From: an uncultured Kiritimatiellota bacterium
GTDB lineage: Bacteria; Verrucomicrobiota; Kiritimatiellia; RFP12; DVOR01
Reading direction: 5' to 3'
Length of the DNA: 64,000 bases
Assembly: GCA_944391085.1 (NCBI GenBank)
Contig: CALXSE010000008.1
Location: forward strand, 2,437 to 66,436
Part shown: piece by piece, positions 18,615 through 59,920 of the stretch
How the letters are laid out: every line of letters starts with the position of its first letter
Numbering within the stretch: position 1 is the stretch's first letter
The notes under the pieces: model-generated
The model's database searches: none
Seen by the model: only the letters and a program-made list of their open reading frames with translations
What the model was told of the DNA's origin: nothing
Position numbers and translations under genes: made by a program

Positions 18615-20216
18615 ATGGACATCGACACCGCCGAGCTGCTGGAAGGCCAGATCGAGAGCAAAGCCCTCACCCTCAAGGAACTCTTCGCCGAAGACCCCGG
18701 CCGCGCCGGGAAGATGACCGTCTCCGCCGCCGGCTGGACGCTCGACTATTCCAAGAACCTCGTGGACGAGCCCACCCTCAAGCTCCTCCTCCGGCTCGCC
18801 GAGAAGGCCGACCTCAAGGCCGAAATCGAGAAGATGTTCACCGGCGAGCACATCAACAAGACCGAGGACCGCGCCGTCCTCCACACCGCCCTGCGCTCCT
18901 CCAAGACCGCCGGACTGGTGGTCGACGGGCAGGACGTCTACGCCGACGTCCACGCCGTCCTCGACCGCATGGGCGACTTCGCCGCCCGCATCCGCGCCGG
19001 CAAGTGGCGCGGCGCCACCGGCAAGACCATCCGGTACGTGGTGAACATCGGCATCGGCGGCTCAGACCTCGGCCCCGCCATGGCCTGCCAGGCCCTCCAG
19101 CCCTTCTCCAAGCGCTCCATCAAGTGCTTCCACGTCTCCAACATCGACGCCACGCACATGGCCGAGACCCTCCGCCAGGTCAAGGCCGACCAAACCCTCT
19201 TCATCGTCGCCTCCAAGACCTTCACCACCCAGGAGACGATGACCAACGCCCACACCGCCCGCGCCTGGCTCGTCGAGCGCCTGGGTGAGGCCGCCGTCCC
19301 CCGCCACTTCGTCGCCGTCAGCACCAACGCCGCCAAAGTCAGGGAGTTCGGCATCGACGAAGCCAACATGTTCGGCTTCTGGGATTGGGTCGGCGGCCGC
19401 TACTCCCTCCCCTCCGCCATCGGCCTTTCGCTCATGATCGCCATCGGGCCCGCCAACTACAAGCGGATGCTCGCCGGCTACGAGGCCATGGACAAGCACT
19501 TCCGCACCGCGCCCTTCCGCCGCAACCTCCCCGTTCTCCTCGCCCTCATCGGCATCCTCTACTCCAACGGCTACGGCGCAGACTCCTACGCCGTCCTCCC
19601 CTACGACCAATACCTCGCCCGCCTCCCCGCCTACCTCCAGCAGCTCGACATGGAGAGCAACGGCAAGAGCGTCGACCGCGACGGGAACCCCGTCGACTAC
19701 ATGACCGGCCCCATCGTCTGGGGCGAGCCCGGCACCAACGGCCAGCACGCCTTCTACCAGCTCATCCATCAGGGTACCCGCCTCATCCCCGCCGACTTCA
19801 TCGGTTTCTGCCGCAGCCACAACCCGATCGGCGACCACCACGACAAGCTGATGGCCAACTTCTTCGCCCAGACCGAGGCGCTCGCCTTCGGCAAGACCGC
19901 CGAGCAATGCCGCGCCGAGGGCGTCCCCGAGCGCCTCATCCCCTACAAGACCTTCGAGGGCAACCACCCCACCAACACCCTTCTCGCCGACGAGCTCACC
20001 CCCCGCACCTTCGGCGCCCTCATCGCCCTCTACGAGCACAAGGTCTTCACCCAGGGCGTCATCTGGAACATCTACTCCTTCGACCAATGGGGCGTCGAGC
20101 TCGGCAAAGTCCTCGCCGGCAAGATCCTCAAGGAACTCGAAGACCCCGCCCTCCCCCTCGCCCACGATTCCTCCACCAACGCCCTCATCGCCCGTTACCG
20201 CGCCGCCAAGGCCTGA
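18615..20216 (+). CDS. pgi: glucose-6-phosphate isomerase
   Basis: 533 aa: [46 protein letters not shown]. Confidence 0.95.
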
Positions 20217-23871: not shown

Positions 23872-26800
23872 TTACTCCTCGACGACGACGCGGAAGCCGA
23901 CGTTGTAAGGATGCTGCCATTGCGGATAACCCCAGCGGTTGGCGGAGGAGGCGCGAATCTGACGCTGATACCAGGAACCGCCGCGGATGACCTTGAGCTC
24001 GGGATTGGCGCCGTCAAAGCCGGGCCCGCCCTCATAGGAGACGAAGGGCGAGGTGGTCCATTCGGCGACGTTGCCGTGCATGTCGTAGAGCCCAAAGGCG
24101 TTGGGGAGGTAGGAGCCGACCTTGGCAAGGTGGAGGACGCCGTCGTTGAAGCGGGGATCCTTCTTCTCGTAGTCCATCCACTGATCGGGGTTGCGGATGG
24201 GCTGCGGGTCGACGCCGCGGACGGCGAGCTTCTTCATGGTGACGTCAGCGAGGTTGGCGTGCTTGCCGAAGTCGGCGTTGAAGTCGCCGTAGTTCATGGG
24301 CGTGTCGGTGCCGGCGCGGCAGGCGTATTCCCACTCGGTCTCGGTGGGGAGACGCACCTTCTTGCCGGTCTTCTTGGAGAGCCAGTCGCAGAAGGCCTGG
24401 GCCTGGTCGAAGGAGACGCGGATGGCGGGGAAGTCCGGGTCGTTCACGAAGTAGCCGCGGCGGACCTGATCCTTGTAGTGCATGTCGTAGACGCCGTTCT
24501 CGAAGGTGGGGTCGAACTCGCGCATCATACCCATGGTGACCTCGGTGGTGCCCATGTAGAAGGGCTTGGCGACCTCGGCGGGATGGGCGGGGGCCTCGGC
24601 GTTGGTCTCGTCGTCCGAGCCCATGACGAACTTGCCGGCGGGAATCTTGACGAGGGTGATGGCCTTGCCGCCGCCGACGTCGAGGGTGAGGGTCTGGCGC
24701 TGGCCCTGCTTGGCGGCGCCGTCGAAGGGCCACCCCTCCACGGCGGGCTTCTGGGCGGGCTTGGCGACGGTCGCGCCGGTGGGGGCGGCGAACTTCACGG
24801 CCCCGGGCTTGTAGGGGTTGATGATGCGCTCGGGGTCGAAGTCGAGGTTGGTGGTCTCGCGCTCGTAGCGGCGGCGCTGGTCGATCATGCGCTGGCGGGC
24901 GCCAAACTCAGTCCACGTGCCATAGTACGGGACGTTGAGGTCAATCCAGGTGATGATGCGATCCCATTCCTCGGGCGTGAGGACGACGCCGTGGTGCCCC
25001 TTCTTGAGGATCTGGTAAAGGTCGGAGGTGGTGGCGTGGAACTCGAGCGGGTTCAGCACGTGGTAGTCACCCTCGGGGCCGTTGCGGCGGACGTAGGGGT
25101 GGAGGGCGAGATAGGACTCGGAGAACTTGCCCCAGCCCAATTTCGGGTTGTACTCGAAGTTGGGGATGACCTCGCCGATGGCGTTCTTGGCGGTGGCCTT
25201 GCCGTTGTGGCAGCCGACGCACTTGGCGTCGAGGACGGGCTGGAGCTCGCGCTCAAAGGCCCAGCCGCGGGGCGGGCCGTACCAGTTGGCAATCTGCTGC
25301 GGGGGCTTGCGGGCGGCGGCGGTCACCTGGCCAGCGGGGGCGGCGGCGTTCTGGTTCTCGTGGCAGCCGATGCAACTGATGGTCTCGCCGGGCTGGCCGA
25401 CAAGCCAAGAGCGCATGAGCTGAAGGGCGCGGCCTTCGCTGTCAAGGGGCTGGACGCTGAGGGGCGTCTGCGCGGGGAAGACGAACATGGTGGAGCCATC
25501 TTCCTCGACGTCGACGGTGCCATGGAGGACACGGGGATCCCACGGGCCCTCCATACCGATGGCATAGTGGCCGCCGGCGTAGCGGGGGGCGTACTCGTAG
25601 TGGAAGACGCGGAGCTTTTTGACGGTGCCGTGGGGGACGTCCTTCAGGGTGTCCTGGCCGCGGTAGACGTTGGTCATGTAGACGTTGCAGGTCTTGGCGC
25701 CGGGAACGATGCGGTCAGGCTGGACGGGGGGGCGCTTGGTGGCCTTGAGGGGGATAGGCTCGTAAAGGTTGGTGTTGGGCATCTCCCAAAGGGTGAGGCA
25801 ATTGTCGAAGATGTCGATGAGGACGATCTTGAAGTCCTTGGAGCCGTCCTCCTGCTTGGCGACGAGGACGAGTTCGTCGTTCAGCGGGCGGGGGTGGATG
25901 AAGTAGGGCGAGATGTTGTCGACGAGGCGATCCAGCGTGATGTTCTCGATGGGCTTGCCGGCGTGGCCGAACTTGTGGACGGCGCCCTGGGTCTCGATGC
26001 GGCCCTTGGAGACGTCGAACATGACGAGCTCGCCTTTGCGGGCGACGCCATGATGGCCGGAGACGATGCCGACGAACTTGGTGGAGCTGCCGGGGATGTG
26101 CTGCTGGCCGAAGATGGCGTTGGGCCAGTAGGAGTTGGAGCCGTAGAACTCCTGCTGGTCGGTGCCGTCCTGGTTCATCGTCATCATGACGCGGGAGAAG
26201 TAGTGGGCGGAGTCGGTGTACTCCCAGCGCAGGAAGACGAGGCGGCCGTTGGGATAGACCTCGGGGTTCCAGTTGCAGTCCTGGTCGAAGGTCAGGCGGC
26301 GCATCCCGGTGCGCTCTTTGTTGATGAGCACGAGGTTGGAGACGATGTCGCCGCCGCTGACGCAGGGCACGCCCTGGAAGCCGACGGAGGCGGTGGTGAC
26401 GATGCGCCCGTCAGGCAGGTAGCAGGCGTCGTAGATGTCCACTTCCTTGTCGTCGTTCTTGTAGGCGCTGCGCCAGTTCTTGCCGTCGACGTCGATTTCG
26501 TAGAGTCCCCACGGGGTGCCCTTTTCCTCCTCACCGGAAGAGAGAAGCAGGGTCTTGGCGTCCCAGTCCAGGCAGAGGTCGCCCATGTAGACGGAGGATT
26601 CGCGCAGGACGGTGGGCTGGCGGTTGGGAGCCTTGTCCTGGTCGAGGGGGCCGCGGAGGAGCTTGCCCTTATAGGGCCCGCGGAGGTTGCCCTCGTTGTT
26701 ACCGAGCCAGCCGGTGTTGCCGGCGTAGTTGGCGAAGAGGCCCTGGGCCGCGCCGCGCTCGCGGGAGAGGAAGATGATCTCGTCGAAATCCACCGCGGGG

Positions 26801-27558
26801 TGCTGCAGGAGGATGGCCTTCTGAAGCTTGCGATAGTCGGCATAAAGGGAGCCGAAATCCTTCTCGCCGGCCTCGATGCGCTTCTGGAGGGCATCGATCC
26901 CGGCGGCGATTTCGGCGGCGTTGGGATAGTTTTCGGGATACTTCCCGGAATAGCGCTTCAGGCCGTCGCGCAGGGCGTTGAGGTTGATGGCCTTGGCAAG
27001 GGCGGCCAGGCGGGCGCGCTCCTGCAACTGCGGGATGGTCTCAAGCGTCTGGCCGGTGCGGGCGCCCTGGCCGGCCTTGGGCACGAAGATGTTCTGGCGC
27101 TCGGCGCGGGCGCGGTCGGCCTCCCACACAATCTTGCGCCCGGCGTCGGCGACGGTGACGCGGAAGCCGTTGAGGCGGCCGCCGAGGCCCTCGGCGCGGT
27201 TCCAGACCGTGATGCGCTCGATCTGCCCCAGGGGGACGTCCTTGCCCAGGTCAAGCTCCCACACGGGGAAGGGGGTGTTCTCCTCGGAGTGGGTGATGGT
27301 GCCGCTGTCCCAATTGCCGGCGGTGTTGCCGTCGATGGCGCGCCGGGCCTCGCCGTTGTTGGCGGTGGAGCTTTGGATGGCGGTGCCCTCGCGGGCGATG
27401 TTCTTGCCGTCCTTGGTGATGACCTCGACCTCGGCCAGCGAAAGCGTGGCGCGATCCTTCGGCAGGTCGACGACGACATAACGGGCGTCCGCGGCGTAGA
27501 CGCCTTGCGCCGCGAGCGCGGCCGCCAACGCAGCCAGGACAAATCGAGGACTCTTCAT
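23872..27558 (-). CDS. large secreted multidomain protein: F-type lectin/discoidin-like N-domain, HzsA-middle-like region with two CxxCH motifs, C-terminal FGE-sulfatase (SUMF1-like) domain
   Basis: Signal MKSPRFVLAALAAALAAQGVYA. AIDGNTAGNWDSGTITHSEE..PVWELDLG...VWNR..GLGGRLNGF is F5/8-C or fucolectin-like. Heme motifs CIGCH and CVGCH. C-terminus RVSFDQAQAFCDWL...RLPTETEWEYACRAG...YDMHGNVAEW...RGGSW. Confidence 0.8.
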   Translation of the reverse strand: MKSPRFVLAALAAALAAQGVYAADARYVVVDLPKDRATLSLAEVEVITKDGKNIAREGTAIQSSTANNGEARRAIDGNTAGNWDSGTITHSEENTPFPVWELDLGKDVPLGQIERITVWNRAEGLGGRLNGFRVTVADAGRKIVWEADRARAERQNIFVPKAGQGARTGQTLETIPQLQERARLAALAKAINLNALRDGLKRYSGKYPENYPNAAEIAAGIDALQKRIEAGEKDFGSLYADYRKLQKAILLQHPAVDFDEIIFLSRERGAAQGLFANYAGNTGWLGNNEGNLRGPYKGKLLRGPLDQDKAPNRQPTVLRESSVYMGDLCLDWDAKTLLLSSGEEEKGTPWGLYEIDVDGKNWRSAYKNDDKEVDIYDACYLPDGRIVTTASVGFQGVPCVSGGDIVSNLVLINKERTGMRRLTFDQDCNWNPEVYPNGRLVFLRWEYTDSAHYFSRVMMTMNQDGTDQQEFYGSNSYWPNAIFGQQHIPGSSTKFVGIVSGHHGVARKGELVMFDVSKGRIETQGAVHKFGHAGKPIENITLDRLVDNISPYFIHPRPLNDELVLVAKQEDGSKDFKIVLIDIFDNCLTLWEMPNTNLYEPIPLKATKRPPVQPDRIVPGAKTCNVYMTNVYRGQDTLKDVPHGTVKKLRVFHYEYAPRYAGGHYAIGMEGPWDPRVLHGTVDVEEDGSTMFVFPAQTPLSVQPLDSEGRALQLMRSWLVGQPGETISCIGCHENQNAAAPAGQVTAAARKPPQQIANWYGPPRGWAFERELQPVLDAKCVGCHNGKATAKNAIGEVIPNFEYNPKLGWGKFSESYLALHPYVRRNGPEGDYHVLNPLEFHATTSDLYQILKKGHHGVVLTPEEWDRIITWIDLNVPYYGTWTEFGARQRMIDQRRRYERETTNLDFDPERIINPYKPGAVKFAAPTGATVAKPAQKPAVEGWPFDGAAKQGQRQTLTLDVGGGKAITLVKIPAGKFVMGSDDETNAEAPAHPAEVAKPFYMGTTEVTMGMMREFDPTFENGVYDMHYKDQVRRGYFVNDPDFPAIRVSFDQAQAFCDWLSKKTGKKVRLPTETEWEYACRAGTDTPMNYGDFNADFGKHANLADVTMKKLAVRGVDPQPIRNPDQWMDYEKKDPRFNDGVLHLAKVGSYLPNAFGLYDMHGNVAEWTTSPFVSYEGGPGFDGANPELKVIRGGSWYQRQIRASSANRWGYPQWQHPYNVGFRVVVEE

Positions 27559-50120: not shown

Positions 50121-51797
50121 ATGAGCGAACACGCCCGCAAGACCCTCGTCATCGGCCACCGCAACCCGGACACCGATTCCATCGTCTCGGCCATCGCCTA
50201 TGCCGAGCTCAAGCGCCAGCAGGGCTGGAGCCGCGTCCTCCCCGCCCGCGCCGGCCGCCTCACCCCGCAGACCGAATACATCCTCAAGCGCTTCGGCGTC
50301 GAGGCCCCCGAGTTCATCCCGGACCTGCTCCCCAAGGTCGAGCACTGCATGCAGGAGGGCTCCCCCATCACCGTCTCGGCGGACACCGCGCTCTGGGACG
50401 CGCTCGAGCTGATGGACAAGAACCGCCTCCCGGCCGTCCCCGTCGTCGGCCGCGACGGCCGCTACCGCGCCTTCCTCACCCACAACACCTTCACCGAGAA
50501 CATCGTCCACAAGACCGACCCCCACCGCAAAGCCATCATCCCCACCAGCATCGCCCTCCTCTCGCGCACCCTCCGCGCCCAGCCCCTGCTCACCTTCGAC
50601 GCCGATGCCGTCGTCAAATCCCGCATCCTCGTCGCCGGCTCCACCGCCGCGGCCTTCGAGCAGGTCCTCAAAACCGAGCTCCCCACCAACGCCATCGCCC
50701 TCGTCGAGAACCGCGACTCCATCCTCGAGCTCTGCATCAACCACAAGGTCCGCGCCATCGTCCTTACCTCCGGCCTCCCCCTCTCCAAGGCCTTCTTCAA
50801 CCGCGCCCGCGAGGCCAACATCTCCGTCCTCATCTCCCCCTACGACATCGCCTCCACCGTCTTCCTCACCCTCTATTCCATGCCCGTGGGCGCCCTCTCG
50901 ACCGACGACACCAAGCCCGTCCGCGCCGACGACCTCGTCCGCGACGTCCTCCCCGCCGTCCAATCCTCCCCCGCCCGCGCCCTCCCCGTCGTCGGCGAGG
51001 GCGACCGCGTCGTCGGCGTCATCAACGAGCGCGACCTCTACCGCCAGCCCAACGTCGACGTCATCATGGTCGACCACAACGAGCTCTCCCTCGCCGTCGA
51101 GGGCCTCGACCAGTTCCGCGTCATCGAGATCATCGACCACCACAAGCTCGGCAACTTCCCCACCCACGACCCCATCGACTTCATCAACCGCACCGTCGGC
51201 TCCACCGCCACCGTCGTCGCCTGCCTCTACCAGGAGCGCAAGGCCACCCTCACCCCCGCCGTGGCGGGGCTCCTCCTCTCGGCCATCATCACCGACACCC
51301 TCGCCCTCCGCTCCCCGACCGCCACCGACGTCGACCGAGACATGGCCGAGTACCTCGCCGGCCTGCTCAACCTCGAGGTCGACGACCTCGCCCACGACAT
51401 CTTCTCGCACGCCTCCCGCCTCACCGACCTCGACACCGACCGCATCCTCGGCATGGACTCCAAGGAGTACAACGAATGCGGCGTCGCCTTCACCGTCGCC
51501 CAGATCGAGACCGGCACCACCGACGAGCTCACGCCCCGCCTCCACGGCCTCCTCGGCGCCCTCGACGCCAAATGCCAGGCCCGCGGCCACTTCTTCGCCG
51601 CCCTCATGGTCACCGACCTCACCGCGCTCAACTCCACCCTCCTCGTCGCCGGCGACCCCCGCTTCATCGCCAAAATCCCATTCCCCCGCGTCGAGGGCGA
51701 TGCCAACGTCTTCCTCTGCAAAGGCATCATGTCCCGCAAAAAGCAGCTCCTCCCCCTCCTCCTCGAGCAGCTCAACGCCCTCCTCGGCCACCAGTAG
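50121..51797 (+). CDS. CBS-domain family II (DHH) inorganic pyrophosphatase
   Basis: LVIGHRNPDTDSIVSAIAYAELK (DHH), CBS pair, DRTGG-like insert, MVDHNE, IIDHHK, DHHA2 C-terminus. Confidence 0.85.
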   Translation: MSEHARKTLVIGHRNPDTDSIVSAIAYAELKRQQGWSRVLPARAGRLTPQTEYILKRFGVEAPEFIPDLLPKVEHCMQEGSPITVSADTALWDALELMDKNRLPAVPVVGRDGRYRAFLTHNTFTENIVHKTDPHRKAIIPTSIALLSRTLRAQPLLTFDADAVVKSRILVAGSTAAAFEQVLKTELPTNAIALVENRDSILELCINHKVRAIVLTSGLPLSKAFFNRAREANISVLISPYDIASTVFLTLYSMPVGALSTDDTKPVRADDLVRDVLPAVQSSPARALPVVGEGDRVVGVINERDLYRQPNVDVIMVDHNELSLAVEGLDQFRVIEIIDHHKLGNFPTHDPIDFINRTVGSTATVVACLYQERKATLTPAVAGLLLSAIITDTLALRSPTATDVDRDMAEYLAGLLNLEVDDLAHDIFSHASRLTDLDTDRILGMDSKEYNECGVAFTVAQIETGTTDELTPRLHGLLGALDAKCQARGHFFAALMVTDLTALNSTLLVAGDPRFIAKIPFPRVEGDANVFLCKGIMSRKKQLLPLLLEQLNALLGHQ

Positions 51798-51992: not shown

Positions 51993-52069
51993 TGGAGCCA
52001 ACTGACGGAATCGGACCGACGACCTGCGCATTACGAATGCGCTGCTCTACCTAGCTGAGCTAAGTTGGC
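51993..52069 (-). tRNA. tRNA-Thr (anticodon CGT), CCA encoded
   Basis: Manual fold: acceptor GCCAACT/AGTTGGC, D-arm GCTC/GAGC, anticodon stem GCGCA/TGCGC with loop TTCGTAA, variable loop AGGTC. The T-arm GTCGG-TCCGATT-CCGTC is atypical (see findings). Confidence 0.78.
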
Positions 52070-53715: not shown

Positions 53716-55890
53716 TCACTGGGCGAGCTGGGCGCGGAGGCGCTGGGCAAGCGTGGTCTGCCGGCGCAGGTCCGCCTCGGCATGAAGGGCGATCCAAACG
53801 GCCTTGGAGGAGCCGATGACGACGACCAGGCGCTTGCCGCGGGTGATGGCGGTGTAGAGCAGGTTCTTGCGCAGCAACTTGAAGTGCTGGGTGTGCAGGA
53901 GGATGACGACGGCGGGGTATTCGCTGCCCTGGGATTTGTGGATGCTGCTGGCGTAGGCGAGGGAGAGCTCGTCGAGCTCGTCCTGCTTGTATTCCACGAG
54001 CTTGCCGTCGAAATCGACGAGAAGGGTGCGGCCCTCCGGGTCGACGGAGACGACAAAGCCGATGTCGCCGTTGTAGACGTCCTTGTCGTAGTCGTTGGCC
54101 ACCTGCATGACGCGGTCACGGGCGCGGAAGGCGGTGGCGCCGCGCAGAAGGGCGGGGCCCGAGGGGTTGAGGGTGCGCTGGAGCAGCTCGTTGAGGCGGT
54201 CGGTGCCCAGCTCGCCGCGCCGCATCGGGGTAAGGATCTGGACGTCATGCGCAGGGTCGAGGCCGAAGCGGGCGGGGATGCGGCGGGTGACCATGCGCAG
54301 GAGCATGTCCTGCATCTTGGCCGGGTCCGTCGCCTCCATGAAATAGAAGTCGCTGTCCTGGCCGACGGGCGGCAGCTCGAAGGTCTCGCCCTGGTTCACG
54401 CGGTGGGCGTTGCGAACGATGTAGCCGGAGGCGTCCTGGCGGAAGATGGTGGTCAGGCGGGCGCAGGGGATGACGCCCGAGCCGATGAGGTCGCCCAAGA
54501 CGTTGCCGGCGCCGACGCTGGGGAGCTGGTCGGCGTCGCCCACGAGGATGAGGACGGCGCTGTCCGGCAGGGCCTCGAGGAACTTCCGGGTGAGCGAGGC
54601 GTCGAGCATCGAGCATTCGTCGAGGATGAAGACGTCGCCCTGGAGGCGGTTGTCGAGGCCGTAGAGGAAGCCGCCCGTCTGGGGCTGGTATTTCAGCAGG
54701 CGGTGGAGGGTGGCGGCCTTGAAGCCCGTGGATTCGTTCATGCGCTTGGCGGCGCGGCCGGTGGGGGCGGCGAGGAAGAGGCGCAGGCAGCGGGCCGAGA
54801 AGATCTCGCAAAGGGCCCTGATGATGGTGGTCTTGCCCACGCCCGGGCCGCCGGTGACGACGCAGACCTTCTCGCTGACGGCCAGGTGAAGGGCTTTCCA
54901 CTGCGCCGAGGCCAGGGTCAGGCCCATCTTGCGCTCGGCCCACTCCACGGCATTGTTCGCAAGGATGGGGCGGAAGGCCGGCTCGGTGCGCATGAGGGCG
55001 GCGAGGCGCGCGGCCACGGAGACCTCGTCGGCGTAGTTCCCCGCCAGATAAACGCGGTCGTCCTCGATGACGACGACCTGTCGCCGGGCGTCCGCGAGGA
55101 GGGCCTCGGAAAGGCGCTCGACGGGGATGCCGAGGGCGTCGTTGGCCAGGAGCAGGAGCTCGGACTGGCGCAGATAGACGTGCCCGCCGTCCTCGGCCGC
55201 GGTGCGCAGGCAATGGAGGAGCCCGGCCTCGGCGCGGAGCTCGGCGTCCTTGGCGATGCCCATGCTCAGGGCGATGCGGTCGGCGGTGAGGAAGCCGATG
55301 CCGCGCACGTCCTCGGCCAGGCGGTAAGGGTTGCGCTTGACGATGGCGATGGCGTCCGGGCCGTAGCGCCGCCAGATACGCGCGGCCTGGCCCGTGCCGA
55401 TGCCCTGCGACTGGAGGTAAATCATCGTATCGTGGCTCTGGCGCTGCTCGCTCCAGGACTTGCGGATCTGCGAGCACTTCTTCGCGCCGAGCTTCGGCAC
55501 CTCGCGCAGGCGGTCCGGGCGCGTGTCGAGGATGGCCACCGTGTCGCTGCCGAACCGGTTGACGATGGCCTCCGCGAGCTTCGGGCCGATGCCGCGGATA
55601 AGCCCGCTGGCGAGGAAACGCTTGATGCCCTCCACCGAGGTCGGCGCCACGCAGGTGAGCGTCTCGGCGCGGAACTGCCGCCCAAAGCGCGGGTCCTCGG
55701 CCCAACGGCCCCGCGCGGTGATCTCCTCGCCCGGCCAGACGGTGGCGCACCTGCCCACCACCGTCAGGCGCCGCGCGTCCCCCACCTGCTCGGCCACCGG
55801 GCGCACGCTGAGCACGGTGTAGCCGGTCTCCTCGTTGCGGAAGACCACGCTCTCGACCGTCCCCGAGACCGTCTCCGCCGCGTCAGCCAT
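53716..55890 (-). CDS. recD2: RecD2-type SF1B ATP-dependent DNA helicase
   Basis: N-terminal OB/HhH region, Walker A GGPGVGKTT, ILDECSM, VGDADQLPSVGAG, IHKSQGSEY, YTAITRGK. Confidence 0.87.
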   Translation of the reverse strand: MADAAETVSGTVESVVFRNEETGYTVLSVRPVAEQVGDARRLTVVGRCATVWPGEEITARGRWAEDPRFGRQFRAETLTCVAPTSVEGIKRFLASGLIRGIGPKLAEAIVNRFGSDTVAILDTRPDRLREVPKLGAKKCSQIRKSWSEQRQSHDTMIYLQSQGIGTGQAARIWRRYGPDAIAIVKRNPYRLAEDVRGIGFLTADRIALSMGIAKDAELRAEAGLLHCLRTAAEDGGHVYLRQSELLLLANDALGIPVERLSEALLADARRQVVVIEDDRVYLAGNYADEVSVAARLAALMRTEPAFRPILANNAVEWAERKMGLTLASAQWKALHLAVSEKVCVVTGGPGVGKTTIIRALCEIFSARCLRLFLAAPTGRAAKRMNESTGFKAATLHRLLKYQPQTGGFLYGLDNRLQGDVFILDECSMLDASLTRKFLEALPDSAVLILVGDADQLPSVGAGNVLGDLIGSGVIPCARLTTIFRQDASGYIVRNAHRVNQGETFELPPVGQDSDFYFMEATDPAKMQDMLLRMVTRRIPARFGLDPAHDVQILTPMRRGELGTDRLNELLQRTLNPSGPALLRGATAFRARDRVMQVANDYDKDVYNGDIGFVVSVDPEGRTLLVDFDGKLVEYKQDELDELSLAYASSIHKSQGSEYPAVVILLHTQHFKLLRKNLLYTAITRGKRLVVVIGSSKAVWIALHAEADLRRQTTLAQRLRAQLAQ

Positions 55891-57013
55891 GGGCGACCAG
55901 CTCCAGGAGCGCCTCGAAGGCCGGCCCGGGAAGGTCGGCGGAGAGCGAGAACCTGAGGCGCGCGGTGCCCTCCGGCACGGTGGGTGGGCGGATGGGGAGC
56001 ACATGGAAGCCCGCCGCGCGGAAGGCCTCGGCGGCCCGCGCGGCGGCGTCGTTGGAGCCGACGAGGTAGGGGACGATCTGCGAGTCGCTCACGCAGTCGC
56101 GCCCGGTGGCGCGGATGGCCTGGGCCAGGCGGCGGCCCATGGCGCGGAGGCGCGCGCGGCGGCCGGCCATCGCGGGGAGGGCGCGAAGCACGAAGCGCGT
56201 CCAGGCGAGGTTGATGGGGGGCAGGGCGGTGGTGAAGATGAAGGGGCGCATCCGGTTGACGAGCGCCTCGCGGACGCTTTGGCGGCAGACGACGTAGGCG
56301 CCGAGCGAGCAGAGTGCCTTGCCGCAGGTGCCGACGAGGAGGTCGATGTCCCCCACGACGCCCTCCTCATGGGCGCAGCCAAGGCCCGTCTCGCCGAAGA
56401 CGCCCACGCCGTGGGCCTCGTCGAGGTAGAGGAGGAGGTTGGGGAAGTCGCGCTTCAGCGCCACGAGCGCCCGCAGGTCGGTGCGGTCGCCATCCATCGA
56501 GAAGACGCTCTCGGTCATGAGGAAGACGTCGTCGAAGTCCGCCGCGTGGCGCTCCAGCAGGCGGCGGGCGTGGGCAAGGTCGTTGTGGCGGTAGCGGAAG
56601 AACCTGCAGCCGCTGGCGCGGATGCCGTCGATCATGCTCGCATGGCTGAGTTTGTCCGCCAGGACGAGGGTGCGGGGGCCGGCGAGGGCGGGGAGGATGC
56701 CGGTGTTGGCGTGGTAGCCGGAGTCGAGGACTAGGGCGGCCTCGGCGCCGTAGGCGGCGGCCAGGTCGGCCTCGAGGGCGCGCGCGGCGGCGGTGTCCCC
56801 CGTGAGGAGGCGGGAGCTGGCGGCGCTCAGCCGGCGGTCCTCGCCGGCAAGCCGGGAGAGGAAGGCCTCGCGCAGCGCCTCGTCATGCAGAAGGCCGAGA
56901 TAGTCGTTGCTGGAAAGGTTGTGAAGGCCCTGGGGGACGTCGGGCAGGGTGCGGTACGCGCCCCGCGCCCTCAGCGCCGCGAGTTCCGAGGCAAGTCGTG
57001 CGTAAAACTCCAT
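55883..57013 (-). CDS. bioF: 8-amino-7-oxononanoate synthase (alpha-oxoamine synthase family)
   Basis: NLSSNDYLGL, LDEAHG, GTCGKAL (PLP Lys). The family call is secure; BioF versus Kbl is less so. Confidence 0.72.
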   Translation of the reverse strand: MEFYARLASELAALRARGAYRTLPDVPQGLHNLSSNDYLGLLHDEALREAFLSRLAGEDRRLSAASSRLLTGDTAAARALEADLAAAYGAEAALVLDSGYHANTGILPALAGPRTLVLADKLSHASMIDGIRASGCRFFRYRHNDLAHARRLLERHAADFDDVFLMTESVFSMDGDRTDLRALVALKRDFPNLLLYLDEAHGVGVFGETGLGCAHEEGVVGDIDLLVGTCGKALCSLGAYVVCRQSVREALVNRMRPFIFTTALPPINLAWTRFVLRALPAMAGRRARLRAMGRRLAQAIRATGRDCVSDSQIVPYLVGSNDAAARAAEAFRAAGFHVLPIRPPTVPEGTARLRFSLSADLPGPAFEALLELVAHG

Positions 57014-57020
57014 GCGGCGT

Positions 57021-57029
57021 ATTTTACCA
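57021..57029 (-). promoter_or_regulatory. extended -10 promoter (TGGTAAAAT), 7 nt before bioF ATG 57013
   Basis: Minus strand reads TGGTAAAAT, acgccgc, ATG. Confidence 0.55.
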
Positions 57030-57112
57030 CATCGCGTCCTGGGCGGCGCGGAGGCGAAAAGGCCCCGGGCGGGCGCCCGGGGCCTTGCGCGCGCCATGCG
57101 GCGCGGGGGGCC

Positions 57113-58111
57113 TTACTTGGAGGCTTCCTCGACGGCGACGGCGACGGCGACGGTGGCGCCGACCATGGGGTTGTTGCCCATGCCGATGAGGCCCATCATC
57201 TCGACGTGCGCGGGCACGGAGGAGGAGCCGGCAAACTGCGCGTCGGAGTGCATGCGGCCCATGGTGTCGGTCATGCCGTAGGAGGCGGGGCCGGCGGCCA
57301 TGTTGTCGGGGTGGAGGGTGCGGCCGGTGCCGCCGCCGGAGGCGACGGAGAAGTACTTCTTGCCGGCGAGGACGCATTCCTTCTTGTAGGTGCCCGCGAC
57401 GGGGTGCTGGAAGCGGGTGGGGTTGGTGGAGTTGCCCGTGATGGAGACGTCCACGCCCTCCTGCCACATGATGGCGACGCCTTCGCGGACGTCGTCGGCG
57501 CCGTAGCAGCGGACCTTGGCGCGGGGGCCGTCGGAGAAGGCGATCTCGTTGGTGATGGCCAGCTTGCCGGTGAAGTAGTCGAACTCGGTCTCCACGAAGG
57601 TGAAGCCGTTGATGCGGCTGATGATGTAGGCCGCGTCCTTGCCCAGGCCGTTGAGGCAGACGCGCAGGGGCTCCTTGCGGACCTTGTTGGCCTTCATGGC
57701 GATGCCGATGGCGCCCTCGGCGGCGGCGAAGGATTCGTGCCCGGCCAGGAAGCAGAAGCACTTGGTCTCCTCGCGCAGGAGCATGGCGCCCAGGTTGCCG
57801 TGGCCCAGGCCGACCTTGCGGTCGTCGGCGACGGAGCCGGGGATGCAGAAGGCCTGGAGGCCCTCGCCGATGGCCTCGGCGGCATCGGCGGCCTTGGTGC
57901 AGCCCTTCTTCAGCGCGATGGCCGCGCCGACGGTGTAGGCCCACTTGGCGTTCTCGAAGCAGATCTTCTGGATGTTCTCGGTGATCTCGTAGGGGTCGAA
58001 GCCCTTGGCCTTGCAGATCTCGCGGCATTCCTCGATGGACTTGATGCCGTACTTGTCGAGGACGGGCTGGATCTGGCCGATGCGGCGTTCGTAGGATTCA
58101 AAGAGTGCCAT
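57113..58111 (-). CDS. GGGtGRT-motif protein (conserved family of unknown function)
   Basis: 332 aa containing SGGGTGRTLHP. C-terminal G/M-rich tail MMGLIGMGNNPMVG. I recall a family named for this motif, but I cannot verify it here. Confidence 0.7.
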   Translation of the reverse strand: MALFESYERRIGQIQPVLDKYGIKSIEECREICKAKGFDPYEITENIQKICFENAKWAYTVGAAIALKKGCTKAADAAEAIGEGLQAFCIPGSVADDRKVGLGHGNLGAMLLREETKCFCFLAGHESFAAAEGAIGIAMKANKVRKEPLRVCLNGLGKDAAYIISRINGFTFVETEFDYFTGKLAITNEIAFSDGPRAKVRCYGADDVREGVAIMWQEGVDVSITGNSTNPTRFQHPVAGTYKKECVLAGKKYFSVASGGGTGRTLHPDNMAAGPASYGMTDTMGRMHSDAQFAGSSSVPAHVEMMGLIGMGNNPMVGATVAVAVAVEEASK

Positions 58112-58123
58112 GGTGCTTCCTCC

Positions 58124-58837
58124 TTACTCGTGGCGGGGGTCGATGGACTTGACGGCGCCCTGCTCCTCGGTCACGCGGCCGTAGGTGCCGGTGCAGGCCT
58201 TGAGCGCCTCGTTGGCGTCCTGGCCCTTCTTGACGGCCTCCATGAACTTGCCCAGGTGGACGAACTCGTAGCCGCAGACCTCGCTGTTCTTGTCCAGGAA
58301 GATGCGCTTGACGTAGCCCTCGGCCATCTCCAGGTAGCGCACGCCCTTCTGCTTGGTGGAGAACATGGTGCCGACCTGCGAGCGCAGGCCCTTGCCCAGG
58401 TCTTCCAGGCCGGCGCCGATGGGCAGGCCGCCCTCGGAGAAGGCGCTCTGGGTGCGCCCGTAGACGATCTGGAGGTAGAGCTCGCGCATGGCGGTGTTGA
58501 TGGCGTCGCACACAAGGTCGGTGTTCAGCGCCTCCTGGATGGTCTTGCCGGGGAGGATCTCGGCGGCCATGGCGGCGGAGTGGGTCATGCCGGAGCAACC
58601 GATGGTCTCGACGAGGGCCTCCTGGATGACGCCTTCCTTGACGTTCAGCGTCAGCTTGCAGGTGCCCTGCTGCGGCGCGCACCAGCCCACGCCGTGCGTC
58701 AGGCCGGAAATGTCCTTCGTCTCATAGGCCTTCACCCACTTCCCCTCCTCGGGGATCGGGGCGGGCGCGTGCTTGGCGCCCTTGGCGACCGGGATCATGT
58801 GCTCGACTTCGCTCGAGCAGGCGTAGGGACAACTCAT
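58124..58837 (-). CDS. NifU/IscU-N-terminal-like Fe-S scaffold-like protein (extended, 237 aa)
   Basis: GTCKLTLNVKEGVIQEALVETIGCSGMTHSAAMAAEILPGKTIQEAL parallels the IscU core (CGD..L.L.V..G.I.DA.F.TFGCGSAIASSS...GKT..EA). Strong SD AAAGGAGG. Confidence 0.6.
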   Translation of the reverse strand: MSCPYACSSEVEHMIPVAKGAKHAPAPIPEEGKWVKAYETKDISGLTHGVGWCAPQQGTCKLTLNVKEGVIQEALVETIGCSGMTHSAAMAAEILPGKTIQEALNTDLVCDAINTAMRELYLQIVYGRTQSAFSEGGLPIGAGLEDLGKGLRSQVGTMFSTKQKGVRYLEMAEGYVKRIFLDKNSEVCGYEFVHLGKFMEAVKKGQDANEALKACTGTYGRVTEEQGAVKSIDPRHE

Positions 58838-58869
58838 GGTTCCTCCTTTGATTGGAAATGTCGCTTCCC

Positions 58870-58875
58870 ATTATA
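58870..58875 (-). promoter_or_regulatory. -10 box TATAAT for the NifU-like/GGGtGRT bicistron
   Basis: Minus strand reads TATAAT, with a 32-nt leader carrying the SD. Confidence 0.45.
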
Positions 58876-58939
58876 CCGCGCCGCGCCCCCGCCCCGCAAG
58901 CAAAATCGCGCCGGGCGGCTTTGCCCGCGGCAGGGGATT

Positions 58940-58948
58940 TGGTATGAT
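58940..58948 (+). promoter_or_regulatory. extended -10 promoter (TGGTATGAT) for the surA-like operon
   Basis: GGATTTGGTATGATG is identical to the 15-mer at 45744-45758. An 18-nt leader carries SD AAAGGA. Confidence 0.55.
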
Positions 58949-58966
58949 GGGGGAAAAGGACGGATT

Positions 58967-59920
58967 ATGAAAAAGAGACGTTGCCTGACGTTGCTGTCTT
59001 TGGCCCTGTGCGCCGCCTGCCTCCGCGCCGAGGCGACCTTCTACGACGGCGTCGCCGCCTACGTGAACGACAAGGTGGTCACCGTCGACACGGTGATGCG
59101 CGAGCTCCACGCAAGTTTCGACCTCTCGCAAGTCCCGCCCGCGCAGCTGGCCGCGCGCATCCACGAGCTCTTCCCGGTGGTGCGCGACATGCTCGTGGAC
59201 CGGATGCTGATCCTGGAGGCCTACGAGGCCTCCGGCGCGCAGCTGCCCAACGAGTTCGTGAACGACCGCGTGCAGGAAATCCTGGCCGGCCAGTTCGACG
59301 GCGACGAGGCGAAGCTGAAGGAGGCCCTCCGCAAAAGCCGCCTGACGCACGACGAGTGGGTGAAGCAGGTGCGCGAGAACCTCATCGTCACGGCGATGCG
59401 GCAGCTGCAGGTCGACCGCAAGATCGTGGTCTCGCCCAAGCGGGTACGCGATTACTACGCCGCGCACAAGGCGGATTTCGCCGAGGACGCGGGGGTGCGC
59501 GTGCGCACCGTCACCATCGACCCAGCCGGCGGCGAGGAGGCCGCCCAAAAGGCCCTCGCCGAGCTCGAGGCGGGCAAGCCCTTCGAGGAGGTGGCCAAGG
59601 CCTACTCCAAAGACCCGCTGGCCGCGAACGGCGGCGACTGGGGCTTCGTCGACCCCAAGGAAAACTTCGCGGCACCCGCCGTCGCGGCGCTCGAGGCGCT
59701 GAAGCCGGGCGAGCATTCCGGCATCCTCACGGTGGACGGCTGGCGCCTCATCGTGCAGAAGGTGGAGGTCAGGACCGGGAAAACGCCCGAGCTGGAGGCC
59801 ATCTGGCCGCAGGTGGAGGCCGCCACGCGCAACGCGCTGGCCCAGGCCCGTTACGAGGCGTGGATCGAGGGGTTGCGCGAAAAGGCCTACATCAAGAACC
59901 TGGACGTGGACCTGAAGTGA
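58967..59920 (+). CDS. SurA/PrsA-like periplasmic chaperone with parvulin-type PPIase domain
   Basis: Signal MKKRRCLTLLSLALCAACLRA. SurA_N-like helical region, then a parvulin region (VRTVTI...FEEVAKAYSKD..AANGGDWGFV). Confidence 0.72.
   Translation: MKKRRCLTLLSLALCAACLRAEATFYDGVAAYVNDKVVTVDTVMRELHASFDLSQVPPAQLAARIHELFPVVRDMLVDRMLILEAYEASGAQLPNEFVNDRVQEILAGQFDGDEAKLKEALRKSRLTHDEWVKQVRENLIVTAMRQLQVDRKIVVSPKRVRDYYAAHKADFAEDAGVRVRTVTIDPAGGEEAAQKALAELEAGKPFEEVAKAYSKDPLAANGGDWGFVDPKENFAAPAVAALEALKPGEHSGILTVDGWRLIVQKVEVRTGKTPELEAIWPQVEAATRNALAQARYEAWIEGLREKAYIKNLDVDLK

What the first reader, a model, noticed from the sequence alone, without database searches (positions are those of the whole stretch)
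57113..58875. Bicistronic NifU/IscU-like + GGGtGRT-motif protein pair of unknown function
A 237-aa protein has an IscU-like core (GTCKLTLNVKEGVIQEALVETIGCSGMTHSAAMAAEILPGKTIQEAL) plus N- and C-terminal extensions. Twelve nt later comes a 332-aa protein carrying the diagnostic SGGGTGRTLHP motif and a Gly/Met-rich C-terminal tail. The pair has its own TATAAT box and SD. It is separate from bioF downstream, which has its own leaderless-type promoter. As far as I recall, the GGGtGRT family is named only for its motif and has no assigned function. Its linkage to a scaffold-like protein hints at an uncharacterised metallocluster or cofactor maturation system.
Basis: partly seen in the sequence, partly recalled or inferred. 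Interest (0 to 1): 0.65.

Follow-up and report, generated by a model that had tools for sequence, protein, structure and literature searches.

The report
Ultra-conserved NifU-like/GGGtGRT protein pair
This is a normal copy of a two-gene module that anaerobic microbes from at least ten phyla keep almost unchanged and make in large amounts, yet nobody knows what it does; the evidence here suggests an iron-sulfur enzyme more than an iron-sulfur assembly factor.

Summary
On the minus strand, a 237-aa NifU-like gene (58124-58837) sits 12 nt upstream of a 332-aa GGGtGRT gene (57113-58111; PF14057, 658 bits). The pair has its own TATAAT box, Shine-Dalgarno sites and terminator hairpin.

No function is published for the family as of 2025-26, and no structure is solved. 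The two genes are adjacent in essentially every locus checked, in both directions (76/76 genomes, 75/77 metagenome contigs), across at least 10 phyla including a methanogen.

GGGtGRT is extraordinarily conserved:
- It is 79-86% identical between phyla.
- It forms essentially one full-length cluster among 1.84 billion 50%-identity representatives.
- Synonymous sites are saturated, so this is purifying selection, not recent transfer.

An AlphaFold2 model (pLDDT 85) has no PDB fold match. It shows only a Rossmann-like core with a GxGxxA...D fingerprint.

The NifU-like partner keeps only about 50 residues of the IscU core. Its cysteines are rewired, it lacks Asp39 and LPPVK, and it is not linked to a desulfurase.

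Published data show both proteins are very abundant and fall under iron limitation, like ferredoxin and pyruvate:ferredoxin oxidoreductase (PFOR).

My best reading (about 0.4) is a stable two-subunit Fe-S enzyme of core anaerobic metabolism, with a weak link to lower glycolysis. It is a real known unknown and an ordinary family member.

The parts
58870..58875 (-). -10 box TATAAT of the pair's own promoter; the -35 is weak
   Evidence: Read directly from the sequence. The consensus scan found no full -35/-10 site on this strand, so this is a -10-only candidate.
58841..58849 (-). Shine-Dalgarno AAAGGAGGA, 4-5 nt before the ATG of the NifU-like gene
   Evidence: Sequence.
58124..58837 (-). NifU-like small subunit, 237 aa. 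It has an N-terminal extension (1-45, with a clade-specific MSCPYAC), an IscU-like core (about 46-125) and a conserved C-terminal domain of unknown kind (about 126-237). Family-wide Cys are C53, C81 and C110, plus C60 and C15. The window copy has Ile15 but extra C3/C7.
   Evidence: ORF. NifU_N 24.2 bits over residues 60-117. NCBIfam hits are far below cut-off. Family conservation. PDB profile hits cover only about 50 residues of IscU. Vibrio variant lacks C60.
58112..58123 (-). 12-nt intergenic spacer containing GGAGGA, consistent with translational coupling of the two genes
   Evidence: Sequence. Spacers are mostly 12-33 nt in metagenome loci. The two genes overlap in the divergent clade.
57113..58111 (-). 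GGGtGRT large subunit, 332 aa. It has an N-terminal helical domain (1-112), a Rossmann-like alpha/beta core (118-257, with G155-x-G157-x-x-A160 and D178), the invariant SGGGTGRTxHPD loop (258-269), a His/Met/Ser-rich invariant segment (270-312) and a C-terminal hydrophobic helix (313-331).
   Evidence: PF14057 658 bits. Alignment A1 invariants. AF2 model pLDDT 85, pTM 0.84, with residues 260-285 at low confidence. No fold match in the PDB. Strongest codon bias in the window, Nc 22.6.
57057..57086 (-). Intrinsic-terminator-like hairpin (12-bp GC-rich stem, 4-nt loop, then UUUU) that ends the bicistronic unit
   Evidence: RNA fold of 57020-57115 (-) gives -55.1 kcal/mol, z = -2.3. The simple scan missed it because the tail has only 4 U.

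Best explanation
The two genes encode the two subunits of one stable iron-sulfur protein complex. It most likely works as an abundant enzyme of core anaerobic metabolism, probably an oxidoreductase, and not as Fe-S assembly machinery.

Proposed mechanism (inferred):
- The small NifU-like subunit uses a remodelled IscU fold to hold a permanent Fe-S cluster. The ligands are Cys53, Cys81 and Cys110 plus a fourth ligand (Cys15 from the N-terminal arm, or Cys60).
- The large GGGtGRT subunit supplies a Rossmann-like nucleotide- or phosphate-binding site. This includes a GxGxxA...D fingerprint and the invariant SGGGTGRT loop with its His/Asp/Arg/Ser-rich segment. That loop is ordered only in the complex or when a ligand is bound.
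- Electrons, or a Lewis-acid function, pass between the cluster and a substrate bound on the large subunit.
- The only recurring functional neighbours and the one mutant phenotype point weakly to the lower-glycolysis (phosphoglycerate/PEP) node or to its redox balance.

What is shown:
- Obligate synteny and short gene spacing.
- Extreme purifying selection.
- The conserved Cys pattern.
- A fold with no PDB match.
- High expression and an iron-sparing type of regulation.

What is inferred:
- Physical complex formation.
- The presence and type of cluster.
- The nucleotide ligand.
- The substrate.
For: 1. Obligate pair. The NifU-like gene is immediately upstream in 76/76 genome loci that have upstream DNA. 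GGGtGRT is immediately downstream in 75/77 metagenome loci found with the NifU-like profile, and the two exceptions are truncated or chimeric contigs. The same holds in the 51%-identity divergent clade, in a methanogen and in Vibrio. No third gene is conserved.

2. Extreme constraint. Identity between phyla is 79-86%. There is essentially one full-length 50% cluster among 1.84 billion representatives. Gene GC tracks host GC (r = 0.94) and third-codon-position identity to the window gene is low (0.15-0.48), consistent with saturation. This means long residence under purifying selection, as expected for an enzyme or complex with many constrained surfaces.

3. A cluster-holding subunit, not a cluster-passing one. 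Cys53, Cys81 and Cys110 are in every sequence examined, and the fourth candidate ligands are near-universal: Cys60 in all but the Vibrio variant, Cys15 in about 92%. The IscU features needed for cluster hand-off are absent: the labilising Asp39 and the HscA-binding LPPVK.

4. Large subunit. The confident AF2 model has a Rossmann-like core. The best Foldseek partial hits are NAD(P)-dependent dehydrogenases, GT-B enzymes and PFK. G155, G157, K158 and A161 are invariant and A160 and D178 nearly invariant, placed at a predicted beta-turn-helix and at the end of the next strand. There are many invariant Arg/Lys/Ser/Thr/His/Asp residues but only one invariant Cys.

5. Expression behaves like an iron-consuming metabolic protein.
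- B. thetaiotaomicron BT0173-74 falls 11-13 fold in low iron, together with ferredoxin, rubrerythrin, fumarate reductase and PFOR. Suf genes are not mentioned in that paper's main text (PMC10434189).
- In C. pasteurianum, GGGtGRT is 7.1-fold and the NifU-related protein 2.4-3.7-fold higher in iron excess, like hydrogenase (PMC5395762).
- The NifU protein is among the top ~20 proteins of rumen metaproteomes, next to glycolytic enzymes (PMC6043501).
- In this window the gene has the strongest codon bias of all genes (Nc 22.6), alongside PGI and a pyrophosphatase.

6. Carbon-metabolism hints.
- The pair follows pgk-tpiA-gpmI, or lies between gpmI and eno, or follows eno, in 7 of 174 loci from three lineages.
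- The divergent clade sits between an ApgM-type phosphoglycerate-mutase-family gene and a His_Phos_1 gene.
- B. thetaiotaomicron transposon insertions in BT0173-4 came out of the same screen as pfkA, with 2-fold derepression of Roc on glucose and no growth defect (bioRxiv 10.64898/2026.04.10.717545).
Against: - No biochemical datum exists: no cluster, no complex and no ligand has been shown.
- The Rossmann reading rests on a short fingerprint and on partial Foldseek hits with E > 1e-3 and TM < 0.3. No Pfam NAD- or FAD-binding family hits the domain even at E <= 10.
- The glycolytic neighbourhood is rare (about 4% of loci) and absent from the 80 metagenome loci. It could simply reflect clustering of highly expressed genes.
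- ApgM-family proteins also include proposed homoserine kinases (my own knowledge), so that link is ambiguous.
- The B. thetaiotaomicron phenotype is modest and was not followed up.
- Non-essentiality on glucose argues against a required glycolytic step.
- One genome (Collinsella) places the pair right after sufBDSU.
Confidence: 0.4

Rival explanations
1. Fe-S cluster or other metallocofactor assembly or maturation system. The NifU-like protein would be a transient scaffold or carrier. GGGtGRT would be its dedicated partner, for example a nucleotide-dependent loading or release factor, serving the many Fe-S enzymes of anaerobes.
For: - Weak but real homology to the IscU core, with a Cys at the IscU Cys63 position and two further invariant Cys that could complete a triad.
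- PGAP and JGI name it a scaffold or NifU.
- In Collinsella aerofaciens the pair lies directly downstream of sufB-sufD-sufS-sufU, separated by a transposase.
- A Gly-rich loop and a Rossmann-like core could bind a nucleotide, as in other scaffold partners.
- It is dispensable in B. thetaiotaomicron, as a back-up system would be.
Against: - It fails the NCBIfam equivalogs for IscU, NifU and SufU by a wide margin (15-27 bits against cut-offs of 92-273).
- It lacks Asp39 and LPPVK, and it appears to have a full four-ligand Cys set.
- No cysteine desulfurase or suf/isc gene is nearby in 173 of 174 loci.
- It is strongly repressed, not induced or held steady, under iron limitation in two phyla.
- Its abundance is comparable to glycolytic enzymes, which is unusual for assembly factors.
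Confidence: 0.22
2. Iron or Fe-S storage and buffering complex. It would be an abundant reservoir that sequesters iron, perhaps as Fe-S, when iron is plentiful in sulfide-rich anoxic habitats, and that is switched off when iron is scarce.
For: - It is induced in iron-replete and repressed in iron-poor conditions in Bacteroides and Clostridium, the pattern of storage proteins.
- It is very abundant.
- It is non-essential in vitro.
- It has many invariant His/Met/Asp/Cys residues that could bind metal.
Against: - Storage proteins are not normally conserved at 80-86% between phyla. Near-invariance of whole surface loops and a Rossmann-like nucleotide fingerprint fit catalysis better.
- Only about 4-5 Cys per heterodimer would give a very low storage capacity.
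- The profile search gave no significant ferritin-like similarity. The ferritin hit has E = 0.66 and is noise.
Confidence: 0.12
3. Redox, iron or metabolite sensor that tunes central metabolism through protein-protein interaction rather than catalysis.
For: - Transposon insertions alter the output of the Cur regulator in B. thetaiotaomicron without a growth defect.
- A Fe-S cluster is a common sensing device (my own knowledge).
Against: - Abundance at the level of glycolytic enzymes, and the strongest codon bias in the window, are atypical of regulators.
- There is no DNA-binding or signalling domain.
- There is no conserved partner gene.
Confidence: 0.06

Closest known systems
IscU / NifU N-terminal domain Fe-S scaffold (PF01592, TIGR01999)
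   Same: About 50 residues of the core (strand-strand-'GC'-helix) align, with the Cys equivalent to IscU Cys63 invariant. The sequence is Cys-rich and has an NTD motif at the same place. It probably binds an Fe-S cluster.
   Different: - The length is 230-237 aa instead of about 128.
- The Cys37 and Cys106 positions are not conserved. They are replaced by Cys53/Cys60 and Cys110, plus Cys15 from a new N-terminal arm.
- There is no Asp39 and no LPPVK.
- A conserved 110-aa C-terminal domain has no known relative.
- It is never next to a desulfurase, except near suf in one genome.
- It is always paired with GGGtGRT.
- It is repressed by iron limitation.
SufU (TIGR01994), zinc-dependent sulfur transfer protein
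   Same: It shares the same remote IscU-like core, and SufU is another example of an IscU fold turned to a non-scaffold role.
   Different: It scores 21.9 bits against a cut-off of 92.5. There is no SufS partner. In Collinsella a genuine SufU is encoded separately in the neighbouring suf operon.
Two-subunit Fe-S enzymes of anaerobes (for example L-serine dehydratase alpha/beta and class I fumarate hydratase alpha/beta), used only as a functional analogy
   Same: These are also bicistronic: a small and a large subunit, oxygen-sensitive iron dependence, high expression in fermenters, and no accessory genes.
   Different: There is no sequence or fold similarity. In those enzymes the Cys ligands are not on an IscU-like fold.
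NAD(P)-binding Rossmann dehydrogenases (mannitol dehydrogenase family, Gfo/Idh/MocA, carboxyspermidine dehydrogenase)
   Same: The central 140-200 residues superpose partially (Foldseek probability 0.96-0.99). A GxGxxA motif follows a beta strand, and an acidic residue lies about 21 residues later.
   Different: E-values are above 1e-3 and TM is at most 0.29. There is no Pfam hit. The N-terminal helical domain, the GGGTGRT loop and the C-terminal segment have no counterpart.
Tubulin/FtsZ signature GGGTG[ST]G and the ASKHA 'DGGGT[KR][ST]' phosphate-1 motif
   Same: These are near-identical Gly-rich strings that follow a beta strand and bind nucleotide phosphates in those families (my own knowledge).
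   Different: It is a motif-level resemblance only. No FtsZ, tubulin or ASKHA structure appears among the 50 best Foldseek matches listed, and the motif lies near the C-terminus rather than in the N-terminal domain.

Membership tests
GGGtGRT protein family (Pfam PF14057) | Full-length match to the family HMM above the gathering score | tested here: met
   658.4 bits against a cut-off of 27; residues 4-330 cover profile positions 1-327 of 327.
GGGtGRT protein family (Pfam PF14057) | The eponymous GGGtGRT motif and a length of about 330 aa | tested here: met
   SGGGTGRTLHP at residues 258-268; 332 aa. The motif is invariant in 138 aligned members.
GGGtGRT / NifU-like two-gene module | A 230-aa NifU-like gene immediately upstream on the same strand | tested here: met
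   12-nt spacer in the window. 76/76 genome loci and 75/77 metagenome loci show the same arrangement.
IscU-type Fe-S scaffold (TIGR01999 / TIGR03419 NifU_clost) | Score above the curated equivalog cut-off | tested here: not met
   22.8 bits against 192.4, and 26.7 bits against 187.9. Pfam NifU_N only just passes (24.2 against 22) and covers 58 of 127 positions.
IscU-type Fe-S scaffold | Three cluster-ligand Cys at the IscU positions 37, 63 and 106 | tested here: inconclusive
   Only the Cys63 equivalent (C81) aligns. Position 37 aligns to Gln57, and the Cys106 region is deleted. The alternative conserved Cys53, Cys60 and Cys110 could occupy similar space. This needs a structure.
IscU-type Fe-S scaffold | Asp39, which labilises the cluster for transfer | tested here: not met
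   The HMM alignment puts a gap opposite Asp39, and the family reads CAPQQG-(A/T)C. No Asp is conserved in this loop.
IscU-type Fe-S scaffold | The LPPVK motif for HscA/HscB chaperone-assisted transfer | tested here: not met
   It is absent from the window protein and from the family consensus. The segment between NTD and the next helix is shortened to LVCDAIN.
IscU-type Fe-S scaffold | Genomic association with a cysteine desulfurase (IscS/NifS/SufS) | tested here: not met
   No recurrent class-V aminotransferase cluster among neighbours. SufS or SufU homologues are near the pair in 1 of 174 loci.
SufU (TIGR01994) | Score above the equivalog cut-off | tested here: not met
   21.9 bits against 92.5.
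NifU proper (TIGR02000) | Three-domain NifU architecture, above the cut-off | tested here: not met
   15.4 bits against 273.3, with no passing stretch. There is no central 2Fe-2S domain or C-terminal Nfu domain.
Rossmann-type dinucleotide-binding proteins | A beta-alpha-beta unit with GxGxx[GA] and an acidic residue at the end of beta-2 | tested here: inconclusive
   G155-L-G157-K-D-A160-A161 lies between predicted strand 150-156 and helix 158-168. D178 lies at the end of strand 171-178. These residues are invariant or nearly so. Foldseek hits are partial only, with E > 1e-3, and there is no Pfam support.
Tubulin/FtsZ GTPases | The tubulin/FtsZ fold around the GGGTG[ST]G T4 loop | tested here: not met
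   No FtsZ or tubulin among the 50 best Foldseek matches listed, and no Pfam hit.

The most novel reading that the evidence does not exclude
The pair is a so-far unrecognised, near-universal enzyme of anaerobic central metabolism. It would be an Fe-S-dependent, nucleotide- or phosphate-binding oxidoreductase or lyase acting at or near the phosphoglycerate/PEP node, or on its redox balance. It would be built from a protein fold absent from the PDB plus an IscU fold that evolution converted from a transient scaffold into a permanent cluster-bearing subunit.
Probability: 0.3. Interest if true: 0.85.

Novelty: new member of a known kind. Interest (0 to 1): 0.62.

Why it matters
These two proteins are among the most abundant and most conserved proteins of gut, rumen and sediment anaerobes. 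Examples include Bacteroides, Prevotella, Akkermansia, Clostridia, Treponema and even a methanogen. They are more conserved between phyla than most housekeeping enzymes, yet they have no known function, no solved structure and no recognisable fold.

Assigning a function would fill a gap in every metabolic model of the gut microbiome. It would explain a large iron-dependent fraction of the anaerobe proteome. It might also reveal a new enzyme class and a new evolutionary use of the IscU fold.

The window itself adds nothing unusual beyond a clade-specific CxxxC N-terminal extension. Its value is as a pointer to a tractable known unknown, since genetics already exist in B. thetaiotaomicron.

Tried and rejected
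- **Single-sequence AlphaFold2** of GGGtGRT was useless (pLDDT 34). It was redone with a 138-sequence alignment that included the 51% clade.
- **Foldseek against the PDB** gave no match with E <= 1e-3 and a best TM of 0.29. HMM profiles of both families against PDB sequences gave nothing for GGGtGRT or for the C-terminal domain of the NifU-like protein.
- **Pfam on sub-domains at E <= 10** gave only noise.
- **The idea that GGGTGRT is a tubulin/FtsZ or ASKHA nucleotide loop** was rejected as a membership claim because no fold is shared. It is kept only as a hint of phosphate binding.
- **A natural NifU-GGGtGRT fusion** that could model the complex was sought. All over-long hits are assembly chimeras or internal duplications.
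- **A conserved third gene** was sought and not found.
- **Known regulator boxes** (Rex, Fur, PerR, IscR, FNR/HcpR) were searched upstream in 79 loci. Only a few Rex-like sites with 1-2 mismatches turned up in AT-rich Clostridia, with no control, so this is inconclusive.
- **Recent horizontal transfer or mobile-element carriage** as the cause of the high identity was rejected. GC tracks the host and synonymous sites are saturated. The 'plasmid' hits are non-mobilisable chromids or mis-assigned chromosome pieces, and the 'phage' hits are unannotated faecal virome contigs.
- **The suf link** was seen once, in Collinsella, and not elsewhere.
- **Fitness-compendium supplements** for BT0173/74 are not held.
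- **Rfam** found no riboswitch or RNA element near the pair.
Full report
**1. Observation**

The finding lies on the minus strand.
- ORF 58124..58837 encodes 237 aa and ORF 57113..58111 encodes 332 aa.
- The two genes are 12 nt apart, with GGAGGA in the spacer.
- A TATAAT (58875->58870) and AAAGGAGGA (58849->58841) precede the first gene.
- After the second gene, a 12-bp GC hairpin followed by UUUU (57086->57057) folds within a -55 kcal/mol structure.
- The bioF-like gene then has TAAAAT 7 nt before an ATG at 57013, so a separate leaderless start is plausible.
- The simple promoter scan did not report a full -35/-10 site on this strand, so the promoter is a -10-only candidate.
- Pfam gives GGGtGRT (PF14057) 658 bits over the whole profile. 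NifU_N gets only 24 bits over residues 60-117.
- NCBIfam has no model for the large protein. The small protein scores 15-27 bits against IscU, NifU and SufU equivalogs whose cut-offs are 92-273.

**2. Is the function known?**

No.
- Full-text search finds 13 papers that mention GGGtGRT, and none assigns a function.
- Papers from 2024-2026 say 'poorly characterised' or 'function remains unclear' (PMC11204068, PMC12078515).
- No PDB entry resembles the large protein by sequence.

**3. Co-occurrence**

- A scan of one genome per species found at least 596 species with a close homologue. The best 80 span Kiritimatiellia (95%, so the window is probably from this class), Akkermansia, Clostridia, Erysipelotrichales, Treponema, Succinivibrio, Bacteroidales, Eggerthellaceae and Syntrophorhabdus.
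- In all 76 loci with enough upstream DNA, the NifU-like gene is immediately upstream at 70-94% identity. None has bioF nearby.
- The reciprocal test used the NifU-like profile on metagenome contigs. GGGtGRT was directly downstream in 75 of 77 loci, with spacers mostly 12-33 nt. Of the two exceptions, one (L118) is a chimeric contig that still carries the first residues of a GGGtGRT gene; the other (L144) has only 214 nt downstream and was not examined.
- The pair is also intact in a Methanobacteriaceae archaeon, a Bdellovibrionota MAG, Collinsella and a marine Vibrio.
- It is intact in a small divergent clade that is only 51% identical, where the two genes overlap.
- Clustering all neighbouring ORFs found no conserved third gene.

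**4. Conservation**

- GGGtGRT is 79-86% identical between phyla.
- An exhaustive HMMER search of 1.84 billion 50%-identity representatives returned essentially one full-length cluster (P0122). The rest were fragments or assembly chimeras, plus the small divergent clade.
- This is not recent transfer. Gene GC follows flank GC across 34-67% GC (r = 0.94). Third-codon-position identity to the window gene is only 0.15-0.48, even for the 95%-identical Kiritimatiellia homologue.
- Hits in the plasmid collection are non-mobilisable chromids or mis-binned chromosome pieces. 'Phage' hits are unannotated faecal virome contigs.

The family is therefore under exceptionally strong purifying selection.

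**5. The small subunit**

The family was aligned as 74 and as 39 sequences.
- Invariant residues are Cys53, Cys60, Cys81, Cys110 and His48. Nearly invariant are Cys15, His23 and His86.
- The Vibrio variant lacks Cys60, so the universal set is Cys53/81/110 plus Cys15.
- HMM alignments to solved IscU structures cover only about 50 residues (E about 2e-4).
- Those alignments place Cys81 on IscU Cys63, Gln57 on IscU Cys37 and a gap on Asp39. The LPPVK-His-Cys106 segment is deleted.
- The last 110 residues are conserved but match nothing.
- The window copy, like its closest relative, has Ile15 instead of Cys15. It carries a clade-specific N-terminal MSCPYAC that is shared with other Kiritimatiellia and some Akkermansia-like sequences.

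I read this as an IscU fold remodelled to hold a cluster with four protein ligands, not to pass it on. This is inference.

**6. The large subunit**

- With a 138-sequence alignment, AlphaFold2 gives pLDDT 85 and pTM 0.84.
- The model has an N-terminal helical domain, an alpha/beta core (118-257), a low-confidence stretch (260-285) that is nevertheless the most invariant part of the protein, and a C-terminal helix.
- Foldseek against the PDB finds no match at E <= 1e-3 and no TM above 0.29. The best partial matches are Rossmann-like domains of NAD(P) dehydrogenases, GT-B enzymes and PFK.
- G155-x-G157-x-x-A160 sits between a predicted strand and helix, and D178 ends the next strand. That is the classical dinucleotide-binding fingerprint, but no Pfam family supports it.
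- Only one Cys is invariant, against many invariant His/Asp/Arg/Lys/Ser/Thr residues.

**7. Physiology from the literature and the window**

- B. thetaiotaomicron BT0173-74 is this same pair. It falls 11-13 fold in low iron, with ferredoxin, rubrerythrin, fumarate reductase, VOR and PFOR. Suf genes do not appear in that paper's main text (PMC10434189).
- In C. pasteurianum both proteins are higher in iron excess, like hydrogenase (PMC5395762).
- The NifU protein is among the roughly 20 most abundant rumen proteins (PMC6043501). Both proteins are highly expressed in vivo in many chicken gut isolates.
- In this window, GGGtGRT has the strongest codon bias of all genes (Nc 22.6) and the NifU-like gene has 25.9. 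Comparable values belong to phosphoglucose isomerase and a CBS-pyrophosphatase.
- Transposon insertions in BT0173-4 came out of the same screen as pfkA, with 2-fold derepression of Roc on glucose and no growth defect (bioRxiv 10.64898/2026.04.10.717545).

**8. Context hints**

- Lower-glycolysis genes flank the pair in 7 of 174 loci from three lineages. The arrangements are pgk-tpiA-gpmI-pair, gpmI-pair-eno, and eno-pair in an Akkermansia MAG.
- The divergent clade sits between an ApgM-type and a His_Phos_1 gene, both from phosphoglycerate-mutase-related families.
- A suf operon neighbour occurs once.

**9. Interpretation**

The data fit a stable heteromeric Fe-S enzyme best, about 0.4. It would be abundant, iron-costly and dispensable under laboratory conditions, with a cluster-bearing small subunit and a nucleotide- or phosphate-binding large subunit. 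It is possibly tied to the phosphoglycerate/PEP node or its redox balance.

The rivals are:
- Fe-S or cofactor maturation, about 0.22.
- Iron or Fe-S storage, about 0.12.
- A sensor, about 0.06.

The remainder is unassigned. No biochemical fact exists, so every mechanistic step is inference.

**10. Novelty and verdict**

The window copy is an ordinary member of a catalogued but uncharacterised family. The adjacency with 'NifU' is already visible in public annotation.

What this analysis adds:
- The synteny is effectively obligate in both directions.
- The family is essentially a single full-length 50% cluster under saturating purifying selection.
- The predicted fold has no PDB counterpart.
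- The NifU-like partner fails the scaffold-defining features.
- The published regulation places the pair with iron-consuming metabolic proteins.

It is a worthwhile known unknown, not a new discovery in this window.

Noticed in passing
window 58817-58837 (-), residues 1-15 of the NifU-like protein: The window protein lacks the family's near-universal Cys15 (it has Ile15) but has an extra N-terminal MSCPYAC with two Cys. Related Kiritimatiellia and some Akkermansia-like sequences have both features. This may be a swap of the fourth cluster ligand.
   Followed up: partly
window 55883-57097 (-): The mechanical bioF ORF starts at 57097 and overlaps the terminator hairpin. The real start is probably the ATG at 57013 (MEFYARL...), 7 nt after a TAAAAT box, giving a leaderless mRNA. 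The bioF equivalog score (364 bits) is below its cut-off of 426, so it may be another BioF/Kbl-family acyltransferase.
   Followed up: partly
window 56885-59920 (+) and other long ORFs: Very long antisense or out-of-frame ORFs (for example 1011 aa across both genes on the opposite strand) are artefacts of the 70% GC content. Real genes are recognisable by GC3 above 0.85.
   Followed up: yes
window 50121-51797 (+) and 18615-20216 (+): A CBS/DRTGG-domain family II pyrophosphatase (DHH-DHHA2) and phosphoglucose isomerase share the extreme codon bias of the pair (Nc 23-25). They are probably the other highly expressed genes in this window.
   Followed up: partly
window 23872-27558 (-): A 1228-aa protein combines an FGE-sulfatase domain, a hydrazine-synthase-alpha middle domain and a galactose-binding-like domain. 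This is an unusual architecture.
   Followed up: no
window 51996-52069 (-): This is a single tRNA gene and the only Rfam hit in the window.
   Followed up: no
L081 3715-8606 (also L082-L084): A divergent GGGtGRT clade (51% identity), from mouse-gut MAGs, lies in an apparent operon: zinc-ribbon protein, ApgM-type metalloenzyme, divergent NifU-like protein (His86 replaced by Gln, no His23), GGGtGRT, a 317-aa membrane-anchored unknown, and a His_Phos_1 phosphatase or mutase.
   Followed up: partly
L061 254-5001; L060; L010 3828-6990: The pair is inserted between gpmI and eno in a Clostridia MAG, and it follows eno directly in an Akkermansia MAG.
   Followed up: partly
L174 1-6993 (Collinsella aerofaciens): Here the pair lies just downstream of sufB-sufD-sufS-sufU with a transposase gene in between. 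It is the only locus of 174 with Fe-S assembly genes nearby.
   Followed up: yes
L173 6245-7954 (Vibrio sp. THAF191d, 1.85-Mb replicon): A facultative marine Vibrio carries the pair at 68% identity. In its NifU-like protein Cys60 is Ala and Trp52 is Thr. The neighbours are phenylalanine hydroxylase genes, so the module is not strictly confined to obligate anaerobes.
   Followed up: partly
GenBank MT837192.1, MT835590.1 and other 'Bacteriophage sp.' records: Unannotated faecal virome contigs labelled as bacteriophage carry this highly expressed bacterial gene. They are probably bacterial DNA in the virome data.
   Followed up: no
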